Shown in pieces: positions 13,028-63,530 of a DNA stretch of 64,000 bases. The stretch is from Octopus vulgaris (lineage: Eukaryota), in NCBI GenBank assembly GCA_951406725.2, contig OX597835.1:43462001-43526000 (forward strand), in the 5' to 3' direction. A model generated the notes under the pieces. That model had not been told where the DNA came from and did no database searches. It saw only the letters and a list, made by a program, of their open reading frames with translations. A program made the position numbers and the translations under genes. The stretch's first letter is position 1. Every line of letters starts with the position of its first letter.

Positions 13028-13323
13028 CAGGCGTGGCTGTGTAGTAAGAAGTTTGCTTTTCAACCACATGGTTTTGGGTTCAGTACCACTGCGCGACACC
13101 CTGGGTAAGCGTCTTCAGCTATAGCCTCAAAAGCCTTCTGAGTGGATTTAGTAGGCGAAAAATGAAAGCAGTCCGACGTCCGATCACCGAAGTTAAGCAA
13201 GGTCGAGCCTAGTAAGTACTTAGATGGGTGACCGCTTGGGAAACCTAGGTGCTGTGAGCATCTCACTTAAGGCGGCGGTGCTCCAGCATGGCTGCAGTCA
13301 AATGACTGAAACATGTAAAAGAG
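13028..13323 (+). mobile_element. Chimeric SINE: family A head + 5S rRNA fragment + family A tail
   Basis: Family A 5' half (13028-13179), then 5S sequence (13177-13261), then GGCGGTGCTCCAGCATGG..GACTGAAACATGTAAAAGAG. Confidence 0.85.
13177..13261 (+). rRNA. 5S: 5S rRNA fragment (approximately nt 36-120; 5'-truncated pseudogene)
   Basis: CGTCCGATCACCGAAGTTAAGCAAGGTCGAGCCTAGTAAGTACTTAGATGGGTGACCGCTTGGGAAACCTAGGTGCTGTGAGCAT matches the 3' two-thirds of metazoan 5S rRNA, including the box A and box C regions. No oligo-T terminator follows. Confidence 0.92.
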
Positions 13324-13336
13324 TGTATATATATAT

Positions 13337-13920
13337 AGGCGTAGGAGTGACTGTTGCTTACTAACCACATAGTTCCGTGTTCAGTCCCACTGCGTGGCAC
13401 CTTGGGCAAGTGTCTTCTACTATAGCCTCGGGCTGACCAAAGCTTTTTGAGTGGATTTGGCAGACGGAAACTGAAAGAAGCCCGTATATATATGTGTATG
13501 TGTGTTTGTTCCCCCAACATCGCTTGACAACCGATGCTGATGTTTTTACGTCCTCGTAACTTAGCGGTTCGGCAAAAGAGACGGATTGAATAAGTACTAG
13601 GCTAACAAAGAATAAGTCATGGGGTCGATTTGCTCGACTAAAGGCTCCAGTATGGCCACAGTCAAATGACTGAAACAAATAAAAGTATATATATATATAG
13701 TGTGTGTGTGTCTTTGTGTTTGTGTTTGTCCCTCGCCACCGCTTGATAATCGGTGTTGGTGTGTATACGTCCCAGTAACTTTGCAGTTCGGCAAAAGAAA
13801 ACCGATAAAATAAGAACCAGGCCTTATAAAAAAATAAGTACTGGGATCGATTCGTTCGACTACATATCTTCAAGGTGATGCCCCAGCATGGCCGCCGCCT
13901 ATTGACTGAAACAAGGAAAA
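13337..13920 (+). mobile_element. SINE family A full copy (13337-13684) plus a second 3' half (13700-13920)
   Basis: Family consensus modules. Confidence 0.85.
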
Positions 13921-15156
13921 GACAAACGATGAAAACAATCACATAACATCCATTGATACACAGAATGAGATCCATGAATATTTCTTCATTATCCCTAAAT
14001 CTGTTTCGCCCCACAAGCCCCTGAAGCCATGAAAATAAATCATTAGCAGTCCCCTATTCTGGCCTAAGTTCCTTTTGTCGTCGCTTACACTTTTTATCGC
14101 AATTTACTTTCATTGTTTTAGAACGACTTACTTTCACTTTTTTTACGAAGCTAAACTACGTTAAACCAGATTATGACCCTAAGCATTTTCCCCTCAATAA
14201 TCTTTCTTTAAACTTATCAACTTCGCTACTTCCCCACTCACCCAAATCTACCCCCTTGTTTTCAGCAATCTCGGAACTGATGTTACTTCTACACCCCCTC
14301 CTCGTCTTACTTTTCTAAATAACAAGCTAACGAACTAATTTTCTTATTGTATGTTCACCGTTCTTCACATTGTTTCTGTTCCTTCGTTGTTAATGGCATC
14401 GTTCCCAAAACTTAACCAAACAGTAATTCGTTTGCCACAAGTCTTTTTTACTCTATTAACGTCGACAATTCTTACAATAAACAAACATTTCTTCCATTCC
14501 TACAACCTGGGATTCATTTGTGACGTAGCAAATTCTGGCTACCAACAGAGGCGTAACAAGGCGAAGTCGGTTGAGGAGGGGAAGTTGATCTTTGGATACA
14601 GATGTGATAGGGTGCAAGATTTATCTCTGATCTATGAGGCTTTCTGATGAAGGTGAAGGCGCCCCGAAATGTCTTTTTGCACCTAAGCGCTGAGAACTTT
14701 GCTTTGTCAGTGGCTACCATTTCTTTTAAATGAGGTGTCAGAACATCGATATAGTCACTTCATCTACAAGAAATAGCAGCCAAATCTCCCTCAAGTTATG
14801 TCCTACTATTGTTTATAATTTTTTTTTTTTGTAATTGAAAAATATATTGGATAATGCTGTGCTACGATTGTTTTGTTTGAATAAGCCACGGCTGGAACGT
14901 ATTTAATCATAGGTGTCCTTGAAAATGACTGACCGAGGACAAAACAACAACAGCAGCAGTGACAGCAACAACAACATCTTGAATGAAACCAAGGGCGATA
15001 AACTTCTGTAAATCAAGACAGCGACAGGGTTTCGAATACAGGTACACACACACACACACACACACGAACACACGCGCATACATTGAACATGTGCGGGTAT
15101 ATATGTATGCATACGTGTGTGTACGCGTTTAAGTATGTTTATGGATGTAAATATAT

Positions 15157-37236: not shown

Positions 37237-38402
<1,166 letters not shown>

Positions 38403-38404
38403 TG

Positions 38405-57501: not shown

Positions 57502-59145
57502 TGTTTTCTTATATATATATATGAAACAAACACAAGTGTTTATTTTTTATGCCAACGTCACACTGATCTAGGGTGGGTGGGATCTGTGGTCATAAATTGG
57601 GTTTCGAACTTGCATATCTACAGTATCCTGCCGACACTTTGTCTTCTGGGGTCTATGCTATCGTACCTAGCCATTTGTGGTGTCTTACAAGTTCATGTGC
57701 TTTAATTCTTGATTCCTAAGAATTCTCATAACAAAATTATATATATATATTAATCGAAGTGAACAATATTATATATCAATTACTGCAGATCCGTTTCGCA
57801 CCAGGAGTTCAACAGAGTATTAGGTAACAATCCGATTATGAAACCCTACGCTCTTCAGAGATGGTGACTGACATATTTCTACTGACAAATTTTTTATGAT
57901 TTAGACGGCTATATATATATATATATAATCTGTTAGCCGTTAATTAACGAAGTTAACATTTTCGTTAACGATTTAACTTTTAAGTTTACTTTGAAAATCA
58001 TTATCGGACTAATCAACTTCCGTTGCATTTAGCTTCTGTTAACTCAAATCCCTTAATCCCAAAATTTCATAAAAACCAGTAAGCGATTAAAAGTTTCTAT
58101 TGTTTTCAGATTGTTTTAGCATTTTTCATATGGTACACGTCATTCTTTCAACCCCATTATAACACCATTTATTATTATGAATAGATTGTATGACCGCGTT
58201 TGGCCCTGCCTGGACTTGAAACCAAATCCACCCGCTTGTTGCTTGCAAAGATAGCAAGAAATTTCTTTGTCCTGTTGAGAGGGAACAGTGATTGATGTGT
58301 TTCCTCTTGATCTGTGACCTCACTGAGGTGAATGTCAACAGAGAAAAGTGGAAAAATAAATGGAAGGAAAAAATGTTGGTAAATATTTTGGTGTGAACGC
58401 AAATAGCTGTTACATGGTAGCAAGGCATGCTAGAAATATCCAAATCTTTCCTCTTCTGGAAAAGGAGCTGTTTATGTGTGATTTCAATGTCACATTCGTT
58501 AAAAGAATACAAAATAACCTGGAAAAGAAAAAAAGACCTGCGAAACAAAACTCCCCTGGTGGGAAATTTCGAGGTCCCCCTCTCACCTTTCTTTTCCGAA
58601 AAGAAGTGGTTTACAGCGGGATTGTAGACAGTATGTTGAATGCACCTGAAAAAACTATGGAAAAAAATTACTCCACACCGACGTACGAAATATTTACCGA
58701 AAGAATAAAATCAGTACCTATTAAACTTGTATTTTAATTAATTCAAATTAATGCTTCTCTTTGTGAAAAGTGGTAAAATTTTTGTCGCTGTGCTATCTGG
58801 GATAATTTTAATAACAAATCAAATAGGTAAGATGCATTAAGAATTTCAGATTTAGTGTTTATCCATATTGCTATTGCTTTTTATACCTGTTAAATTTACC
58901 TGCCCATAAAAGTCAAACTTTCTCACCCAAATCAGCTAAAATTACATAACTATAAACTAGGGATAAATAAAGCACCCACTGACAAAATTTCAAATCAGTA
59001 TGTAAAAAAATTATAAAGTCACAAGCAAATATTGTGGACAACCCTCTTGAACCTGGATAATTCAAAATAACATGAATAAACATTACATTTGACAGATTAA
59101 TATGAGCACTAAAGATGTTTGAAAGGTATTTTTTTTTTTTTTTTT

Positions 59146-59362
59146 GTACTTGTTTCAGTCATTTGACTGCGGCCATGCTGGAGCACCGCCTTTAGAGTGG
59201 TGAAAGAGTACAGCAGGGATCACCACCATCCCCTGCCGGAGCCTCGTGGAGCTTTTAGGTGTTTTCGCTCAATAAACACGCACAACGCCCGGTCTGGGAA
59301 TCGAAACCGCGATCCTCCGACCGCAAGTCCGCTGCCCTAACCACTGGGCCATTGCGCCTCCA
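59146..59362 (-). mobile_element. Chimeric SINE: family C head + family A tail
   Basis: A box TGGCCCAGTGG and B box GGTTTCGATTCCC, then ~165 bp of family C joined directly to AAAGGCGGTGCTCCAGC...GACTGAAACAAGTA and poly-A. Confidence 0.8.
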
Positions 59363-62785: not shown

Positions 62786-63530
62786 CTGGCTGTGTGCTAA
62801 GAAGTTTGCTCCCCAGCCATGTGGTGCAGGGTTCACTTTCACTGCGTGGCATTTTGGAGAAGTGTCTTCTACTGTAGCCTCGGGCCAAACCAATGCCTTT
62901 TCAGTGGATTTGGTAGACAGGAACTGAAAGAAGCCTGTCGTATATATATATATCTATATGTATATATCTATGTGTGTGTGTCTTTGTATCTGTGTTTGTC
63001 CCTCCACCATCGGTTGACAACTGGGGCTGGTGCGTTTATGTTCCTGCAACTTAGCGCTTCAGCAAATGAAACCAATGCGATAAGTACTCAGCTTTAAAAA
63101 AAATGTCCTGGGTTTGATTTAAATAATAATAATAATAATAATTGTGTACAGTGCTCAGGTGCACTACAACTCATCTAAAGTGTATATATAATCAGGTGTA
63201 GTTTCGACGGATTTCGGGAAGCATGAGGGCCTTAAAGGATGCAGTGTCATGGCAGTCAACAACTGATGCAGGCAGTTTATTCCATGCTTCAGCAACCCTG
63301 AGCGTGAAAAAATGTTTCCGAAAGTCATGGGAGCTGTGCTGTTTTCTGACTTTGTAGGCATGTCCACGTGTGTTAGACACATGGAGATCAAAAAGGTGTT
63401 CAGTGTTGTTGTTGGTGAGGTGGTTGATAACCTTGTGGGTGTTTACCAAGTCCGTCGCCAGACGCCGGAGCTTCGACTAAATCCCTTTATGGCGGTGCCC
63501 CAGCATTGCTGTAGTCAAATGACTGAAACA
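62786..63530 (+). mobile_element. SINE family A interrupted by a CR1 fragment
   Basis: The GGGTTTGATTT | TTCGACTAAA halves are separated by 63121-63471. Confidence 0.75.
63121..63471 (-). pseudogene. CR1/L2-clade LINE 3' end
   Basis: LRRLATDL...TRGHAYKV....HDFRKHFFTLRVAEAWNKLPASVV....ASFK, followed by a short UTR and (ATT)n tail. Confidence 0.92.

What the first reader, a model, noticed from the sequence alone, without database searches (positions are those of the whole stretch)
13028..13323. 5S rRNA internal control region captured inside a tRNA-SINE (possible nascent dual-promoter SINE)
Seen: the central microsatellite and 3' body of SINE A are replaced by ~85 nt of 5S rRNA (about nt 36-120). 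The 5' junction has a CGT microhomology, and the 3' side runs into the ~50-nt SINE tail with no oligo-T terminator in between. Known: the 5S box A/IE/box C region is an internal Pol III type 1 promoter, and 5S-derived SINEs (SINE3) and tRNA/5S hybrids exist in other animals. Inferred: this is a reverse-transcriptase double template switch. It now has both promoter types (5S-driven start predicted near 13142) upstream of the tail needed for mobilisation.
Basis: partly seen in the sequence, partly recalled or inferred. Interest (0 to 1): 0.72.

Follow-up and report, generated by a model that had tools for sequence, protein, structure and literature searches.

The report
5S-LINE-tail retrocopy nested in old SINE
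A shortened copy of 5S ribosomal RNA joined to the 50-base end of a LINE jumping gene sits inside an older, split SINE repeat; it is likely a later insertion, one of dozens of such small-RNA-plus-tail copies likely made one at a time by the LINE's copying enzyme, rather than a new two-promoter SINE.

Summary
The 5S fragment is real: nt 36-119, 94% identical to the genome's 5S genes, with CGT shared at the 5' junction and no terminator before the tail. It did not replace the SINE's body. A body and tail of the same old subfamily lie 400 bp downstream, behind a second SINE. Head and body are 12-16% diverged, the 5S and its tail under 4% (p<0.003), so 5S+tail is likely a younger, 5'-truncated insertion into the SINE's TA microsatellite. 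The head-5S junction is single-copy. The 5S-tail junction recurs at 51 exact-pattern loci, mostly with whole 5S, but with 50 different linkers that often begin with 5S gene trailers, and with at least four tail types. The same two-hairpin tails end an APE+RT LINE and also carry U6 and pre-tRNAs; they start at one sharp boundary. Best reading: repeated reverse-transcriptase template jumping, as in U6/LINE chimeras, not an amplified SINE. The old head has two private T4 runs, and the 5S start lacks the upstream motif of real genes. This scan noted the same kind of chimera before in three other windows.

The parts
13028..13179 (+). 5' half (tRNA-like head and core) of an old-subfamily SINE A copy, the outer element; private T4 runs at 13057 and 13072
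   Evidence: BLAST to window copies; 22/148 differences from a 42-copy old-subfamily consensus; T runs
13177..13260 (+). 5S rRNA nt 36-119, sense, 5'-truncated; internal control region present (box positions recalled from Xenopus: A 13191-13205, IE 13208-13213, C 13221-13238); CGT microhomology at 13177-13179
   Evidence: RF00001 36.7 bits; 94% to a genomic 5S gene, changes C60G A61G T73A C102A A115G; 3/84 from the consensus of related copies
13261..13273 (+). linker: pre-5S-like 3' trailer of the TCTCACAC class, then AA and a duplicated GGC
   Evidence: trailer class shared with other 5S copies joined to different partners
13274..13323 (+). T1-type two-hairpin LINE-related tail of the young kind, belonging to the 5S insertion
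   Evidence: 2/50 from consensus; fold z -2.46; aligned to LINE tails
13325..13336 (+). (TA)n remnant of the outer SINE's central microsatellite, likely the target site
   Evidence: sequence
13338..13685 (+). complete young-subfamily SINE A copy, a second nested insertion
   Evidence: head 7/131, body 8/137, tail 2/42 from consensus
13686..13717 (+). (TA)n(TG)n, rest of the outer SINE's microsatellite
   Evidence: sequence
13718..13922 (+). 3' body and tail of an old-subfamily SINE A, likely the displaced half of the head at 13028
   Evidence: old-type mark AACCG[G] linked to old heads, 8 of 12 versus 1 of 70, p 1.2e-07; 25/204 from a 41-copy old consensus

Best explanation
The 5S fragment and the tail behind it are likely a separate, younger retrocopy that inserted, 5'-truncated, into the central TA microsatellite of an older tRNA-SINE and split it. 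A second SINE landed in the same microsatellite and pushed the old body 400 bp downstream. Mechanism (inferred): a LINE reverse transcriptase primes in a TA-rich site on an RNA ending in the two-hairpin tail and copies about 50 nt. It leaves the template just 5' of the first hairpin, adds a few untemplated bases and jumps end-to-end onto the free 3' end of a 5S precursor. Here it stopped at 5S nt 36 and joined the target through CGT microhomology. Shown: anatomy, age difference, junction diversity, shared tails, sharp boundary. Inferred: the jump, the order of insertion, inactivity of the copy.
For: Age: head 16.2% and body 16.2% against 5S 3.6% and tail 4.0%. With old-subfamily consensus, head 14.9% and body+tail 12.3%; head vs 5S+tail p 0.0004, body vs 5S+tail p 0.003, head vs body p 0.51. 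Subfamily linkage of head and displaced body. The 5' junction pattern has 2 hits and the other (L092) is not 5S. 51 exact 5S-linker-tail loci, 0 in the reversed control; 50 distinct linkers, tails T2 22, T1 8, T3 8, T4 7, other 6, and 34 of 51 begin at 5S nt 1-5. Many linkers start with trailers of real 5S genes such as TTCCATT, TTCCCTT, TTACCT. T2 and T3 tails follow the stop codon of an APE+RT LINE with a 1364-aa open frame. By eye, 22 of the 30 best U6 loci are joined to tails (10), SINE 5' ends (7) or inner repeat parts (5). 39 exact loci join 5S to the 5' end of a full SINE A, 35 distinct linkers counted by hand. Of 30 T3 tails, 11 carry at most 1 nt of LINE upstream, none 2-88 nt, 19 carry 89 nt or more. 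Other tail elements sit in SINE A microsatellites (L006, L111, L196, L276).
Against: No empty-site contig was seen, so the nesting order rests on age and subfamily marks. Headless SINE bodies are common in the window, so the body at 13718 could be independent. 4 of 12 old heads carry the young body mark, and tail marks alone did not reach significance (p 0.06-0.15). No LINE with the exact T1 second hairpin was seen among 20 of 55 LINE-like ends examined, so the T1 donor may be a SINE RNA. No 5S gene with the TCACAC/TCTCACAC trailer was seen among 30 of 38 loci examined. Target-site duplications are weak: 7 of 50 against a shuffled mean of 3.1, mostly in simple repeats. Sequence alone cannot separate jumping from RNA ligation.
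Confidence: 0.72

Rival explanations
1. Same nested anatomy, but the 5S precursor and a precisely cut tail RNA are first joined as RNA (RtcB-like ligation) and then reverse-transcribed.
For: The 5' boundary of the tail is very sharp. Only 2 of 70 sampled exact T2 tails have LINE sequence upstream. RNA ligation is a proposed route for U6/L1 chimeras (PMC13174262, passages).
Against: 5S and U6 are also joined to the 5' ends of full-length SINEs; from general knowledge these ends are phosphorylated and not RtcB substrates. The partners include pre-5S and pre-tRNA trailers ending in T runs, and linkers carry extra bases.
Confidence: 0.14
2. One reading: one double template switch (SINE tail to 5S to SINE head) made a single head-5S-tail element with two Pol III promoters, a nascent SINE.
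For: The order head-5S-tail and the CGT microhomology are as described. Tripartite chimeras by double jumps are reported in Magnaporthe (PMC2104539, abstract). Boxes of the 5S control region are nearly intact.
Against: The parts differ about fourfold in divergence. A matching old body lies downstream. The junction is single-copy. There are two T4 runs in the head and no upstream 5S motif.
Confidence: 0.05
3. The 5S-tail copies are an amplified 5S-derived SINE (SINE3) from one or a few master loci, and the window holds a truncated member.
For: At least 51 dispersed copies of one general layout; C102A is shared by 43 of 51 and A25G by 39 of 51 relative to the L055 gene. A published Octopus vulgaris annotation lists one recently active '5S' SINE family (PMC13282606 Table 1).
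Against: 50 of 51 linkers differ, and trailer classes pair with several tail types. A25G and C102A also occur in cluster genes. None of 20 full-length chimeras has the upstream motif present in 27 of 27 genes. The published family averages 6 kb per insertion (7 insertions, 42,242 bp), unlike these elements of about 190 nt.
Confidence: 0.05
4. A DNA-level event (break repair or recombination) pasted a piece of an existing genomic 5S-tail copy into the old SINE.
For: There is a 3-nt microhomology at the 5' junction and no clear target-site duplication.
Against: The 3' end stops exactly at the tail's end repeat, followed by (TA)n, as in retrocopies. No donor with this linker exists among the 51 loci.
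Confidence: 0.04

Closest known systems
U6/L2 and U6/Mon-1 chimeras of platypus, and U6/LINE or U6/SINE chimeras of Anolis (Doucet et al. 2015, PMC4476161; passages read)
   Same: A Pol III RNA in sense, upstream of a short 3' piece of a LINE or of its SINE; short or no target-site duplications; ascribed to template switching; proposed as a source of new SINEs.
   Different: Here 5S and pre-tRNAs with 3' trailers are captured as well as U6. Most 5S heads are whole, while platypus U6 parts are mostly 5'-truncated. The donor break falls at one boundary.
Human 5S/L1 and tRNA/L1 chimeras (PMC13174262; passages read)
   Same: 5S or tRNA inserted together with a LINE 3' end.
   Different: The human 5S and tRNA parts are mostly antisense and 3'-truncated (twin priming). 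Here they are sense and reach the precursor's 3' trailer.
Magnaporthe MGL/WEIRD chimeras with switching hot spots (PMC2104539; abstract and section 9 read)
   Same: Template switches at preferred, structure-linked sites, without homology between templates.
   Different: There 28 sites among 33 elements; here essentially one site, at the 5' edge of the tail's first hairpin.
Dictyostelium 5S retropseudogene made by LINE template jumping (Szafranski 2004; title only, seen in a reference list; paper not held)
   Same: By its title, 5S joined by a LINE RT jump into a SINE-like element.
   Different: Details not read.
SINE3 and 5S/tRNA hybrid SINEs (definitions in PMC3531059, PMC4494074, PMC5786205; passages read)
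   Same: A 5S-derived part and a LINE-derived tail.
   Different: No shared master junction, no amplification of the window's three-part form, and the parts differ in age.

Membership tests
SINE3 (5S-derived SINE) | at least 60% identity to 5S over at least 60 nt | tested here: met
   84 nt at 94%
SINE3 (5S-derived SINE) | LINE-related 3' tail | tested here: met
   tail aligns with the 3' ends of an APE+RT LINE
SINE3 (5S-derived SINE) | copies descend from a master: shared junction and shared diagnostic changes absent from the cellular gene | tested here: not met
   50 distinct linkers in 51 loci, at least 4 tail types; the common changes A25G and C102A also occur in 5S genes
SINE3 (5S-derived SINE) | at least 100 interspersed copies | tested here: inconclusive
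   51 exact-pattern loci is a lower bound
SINE3 (5S-derived SINE) | transcribed by Pol III from its own genomic copies | not testable with these tools
   no raw RNA reads available; upstream motif of true genes missing in 20 of 20 chimeras and in the window copy
tRNA/5S dual-promoter hybrid SINE | head, 5S part and tail form one insertion of one age | tested here: not met
   head 15-16% versus 5S+tail 3.7%
tRNA/5S dual-promoter hybrid SINE | junction amplified to several loci | tested here: not met
   1 true hit in G000 with up to 1 mismatch
tRNA/5S dual-promoter hybrid SINE | no Pol III terminator between head and tail | tested here: not met
   T4 at 13057 and 13072, absent from the family consensus
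small-RNA/LINE chimeric retrocopy (U6/L1, U6/L2 type) | cellular RNA copy in sense directly 5' of a LINE or SINE 3' end | tested here: met
small-RNA/LINE chimeric retrocopy (U6/L1, U6/L2 type) | independent origin: junctions differ between copies | tested here: met
   50 of 51 linkers distinct
small-RNA/LINE chimeric retrocopy (U6/L1, U6/L2 type) | autonomous LINE with the same 3' end in the genome | tested here: inconclusive
   met for T2 and T3 tails; no exact T1 LINE among 20 of 55 examined
small-RNA/LINE chimeric retrocopy (U6/L1, U6/L2 type) | target-site duplication around the whole chimera | tested here: inconclusive
   7 of 50 versus shuffled mean 3.1, mostly simple repeats
CR1-group LINE (partner element) | APE endonuclease followed by RT | tested here: met
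   PF14529, PF03372 and PF00078 in one 1364-aa frame
CR1-group LINE (partner element) | RT phylogeny inside the CR1 group | not tested
   the label rests on recalled motifs only; no reference set was available

The most novel reading that the evidence does not exclude
The 50-nt double hairpin is released from octopus LINE and SINE RNAs as a free, precisely cut mini-RNA. It works as a universal adaptor that retroposes by itself and tags any Pol III precursor (5S, U6, pre-tRNA, SINE RNA) for insertion, so the genome keeps a record of germline precursor RNAs and a standing supply of new SINE heads.
Probability: 0.2. Interest if true: 0.68.

Novelty: new member of a known kind. Interest (0 to 1): 0.33.

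Why it matters
The window copy itself is likely a dead nested insertion. The genome-wide pattern behind it is more useful. It shows the step long proposed for the birth of SINEs, transfer of a LINE tail onto a Pol III RNA, happening many times over with one sharp break point, and it suggests why the 5S products did not spread (they lack the upstream motif of real 5S genes). An intact partner LINE frame exists, so jumping versus ligation can be tested directly. The kind of chimera is known from mammals, lizard and a fungus, and this scan has noted it in other octopus-like windows.

Tried and rejected
Expression: no RNA holder listed. One run guessed to be RNA (X1, contigs only) showed no listed piece across the 5' junction, but the list is cut; this is not used as evidence. 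Empty-site search in four contig runs was swamped by repeats and showed no piece joining head to old body. K-means on SINE alignments was uninformative because old copies were few, and a first motif test had only 2 old heads; both were replaced, which used 82 of 84 copies (2 dropped for other letters at the marked sites). The pre-tail linker test was invalid because the motif caught an earlier site. ARAGORN finds no tRNA in the window. Hammerhead and HDV-like ribozyme readings of the tail were considered by eye against recalled consensus and rejected: the core motifs and spacing are missing. No partner LINE with the exact T1 tail was found. No source gene for the TCACAC trailer was found. The pair-count tool was not run on the tail alignment, so covariation is read by eye. 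Literature searches listed no paper on such chimeras in cephalopods. Most subscription papers, including Ohshima and Okada 1994, are not searchable. Only part 1 of 3 of PMC13282606 and two supplement passages were seen; its repeat library may hold such elements.

Full report
Observation. Rfam RF00001 matches window 13147-13260 at 36.7 bits, just under the gathering score of 38. Against a 5S gene of the same genome (L055) the match is 5S nt 36-119 at 13177-13260, 94% identical. CGT at 13177-13179 fits both the end of the SINE head and the 5S. The 5S runs through a 13-nt linker into the shared tail (13274-13323) with no T4 run. The genome (G000, 2.8 Gb) looks like an octopus from its repeats; that label is inferred and I did not establish the species.

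The body was displaced, not replaced. Local BLAST shows two heads, two bodies and three tails in 13028-13922: head, 5S+tail, (TA)n, a complete second SINE (13338-13685), (TA)n(TG)n, then a body and tail (13718-13922). In 82 of 84 complete SINE A copies from the window and fetched loci, the old head mark goes with the old body mark (8 of 12 against 1 of 70, p 1.2e-07); tail marks alone were not significant. The head at 13028 and the body at 13718 both carry the old marks. Divergence from the consensus of the best-matching copies is 16.2% for the head, 16.2% for that body, 3.6% for the 5S, 4.0% for its tail and 5-6% for the inner SINE. Against old-subfamily consensus lines (42 and 41 copies) the head is 14.9% and the body with tail 12.3%; both differ from 5S+tail (p 0.0004 and 0.003) and not from each other (p 0.51). 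One double template switch would give parts of one age. Nested insertion into the central microsatellite explains all of it, and other tail elements sit in the same microsatellite elsewhere (L006, L111, L196, L276). Caveats: headless bodies are common, and no empty site was seen.

The 5' junction is single-copy; the 3' junction is not. A pattern for the head-5S junction with one mismatch gave 2 hits, the window and L092, which is a SINE lacking its microsatellite, not 5S. One 90-nt contig of run X15 (kind not on record, another organism label) spans the junction with 3 differences, and X15 contigs also cover both outer SINE ends with their flanks, so the arrangement is not private to this assembly. 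The 5S-linker-tail pattern gave 51 exact loci and 0 in the reversed control. All 51 were examined: 34 start at 5S nt 1-5, 12 at nt 6-15 and 5 later; 50 linkers are distinct; tails are T2 22, T1 8, T3 8, T4 7, other 6. Many linkers begin with trailers found behind cluster 5S genes before their T runs and end in a few extra bases. The window's trailer class (TCTCACAC/TCACAC) is joined to several partners, but no gene with it was seen in 30 of 38 loci examined.

Whose tail it is. T2 and T3 tails begin about 20 nt after the stop codon of a LINE. L215 holds a 1364-aa frame with APE and RT domains. I call it CR1-like from recalled motifs; no tree was made. The tails fold into two hairpins (z -2.5 to -3.6), and the second stem differs between T1 and T2-T4 by paired changes, read by eye. 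No LINE with the exact T1 tail was seen in 20 of 55 LINE-like ends. T1 is the tail of SINE A and of a second tRNA-SINE, so the window's donor may have been a SINE RNA.

The tail carries many RNAs and starts at one place. Of 148 exact T2 tails, 70 were examined: 2 follow LINE body, 3 5S, 1 U6, 4 ARAGORN tRNA calls at a relaxed threshold (one is probably a SINE head), 2 tRNA 3' halves, 5 SINE pieces, 24 (TA)n and 29 other sequence. tRNA-Cys and tRNA-Leu pass default ARAGORN and keep 3' trailers. Of 556 exact T3 tails, 30 were examined: 19 have 89 nt or more of LINE upstream, 11 have at most 1 nt, none lies between; two of the 11 are a local duplicate. By eye, 22 of the 30 best U6 loci are joined to a tail (10), a SINE 5' end (7) or an inner repeat part (5). 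39 exact loci join the 5S 3' end to the first bases of a full SINE A, with 35 distinct linkers by hand count. The samples are the first loci listed and need exact patterns, so they favour young copies.

Mechanism. Shown: the anatomy, ages, junction diversity, shared tails and sharp boundary. Inferred: the LINE protein primes in TA-rich DNA, copies the tail, leaves the template at the 5' edge of the first hairpin or at a SINE's 5' end, adds a few bases and jumps to a free 3' end of a Pol III precursor. Joins to SINE 5' ends favour jumping over RtcB-type ligation, by general knowledge of RtcB substrates. Target-site duplications are weak (7 of 50 against a shuffled mean of 3.1).

Promoters. The 5S control region is nearly intact, with no change in box C (box positions recalled). 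But 27 of 27 sampled cluster genes have an AATAAATA motif about 30 nt upstream, while 0 of 20 full-length chimeras and the window's predicted start have it. The old head has two private T4 runs before the 5S. A 5S-driven transcript would run on to 13444, leaving the tail internal. A working dual-promoter SINE is unlikely.

Comparison. It works like the U6/L2 and U6/SINE chimeras of platypus and Anolis (PMC4476161, passages), and differs from human 5S/L1 chimeras, which are mostly antisense and truncated (PMC13174262, passages). Switching hot spots are described in Magnaporthe (PMC2104539, abstract and section 9). By the SINEBase definition (PMC3531059, passages) and Kojima's test for masters versus independent chimeras (PMC4494074, passages) it fails as SINE3. 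Six searches listed no cephalopod report, within the limits of the library. Three earlier notes of this scan describe the same kind of chimera; I read them after forming my view.

Verdict. The fragment is real and the nascent dual-promoter SINE is not supported. It is a nested 5S/LINE-tail retrocopy, a new member of a known kind, interest 0.33.

Noticed in passing
G000, 39 loci (e.g. L377-L386) and L330-L356: Whole or truncated 5S joined to the 5' end of a complete tRNA-SINE A. These, not the window copy, are the real 5S+tRNA two-promoter layouts; linkers mostly differ.
   Followed up: partly
L327 and L328, about 1517-1600 on the minus strand: 5S with the TCACAC trailer joined to a different tail ending in (GAT)n, RTE-like from recall, so a second LINE system may make the same chimeras.
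   Followed up: no
L113:1360-1500 and L269: About 150 nt of the same AT-rich unidentified sequence stands before a T2 tail at two unlinked loci with different flanks: one RNA captured twice, or a small tail-bearing family.
   Followed up: partly
L098, L110, L121, L268, L270, L275, L325, L326: tRNA genes or 3' halves with their genomic 3' trailers joined to tails; L325 and L326 are a local duplicate of a tRNA-Met chimera.
   Followed up: partly
window 59144-59350 (-): A young second tRNA-SINE family with the same T1 tail followed by poly(A); it makes up about two thirds of the 30 loci examined.
   Followed up: partly
L215:1849-5943: Intact 1364-aa single frame with a long N-terminal extension, APE and RT; candidate partner LINE.
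   Followed up: partly
G000:C4 about 35.2-35.3 Mb (L031-L060): 5S gene cluster with copies in both orientations, varied trailers and a shared upstream AATAAATA motif.
   Followed up: partly
L038 and L039 (G000:C25): Two 5S copies head to tail, 11 nt apart, each with the same trailer and no T run or upstream motif: possibly a 5S-to-5S jump or a local duplication.
   Followed up: no
window about 63160-63460: Sequence that looks like a LINE C-terminal fragment on the minus strand, next to a short SINE end at 63491.
   Followed up: no
window 37237-38403: A 1.17-kb (TTA)n array, 389 copies.
   Followed up: no
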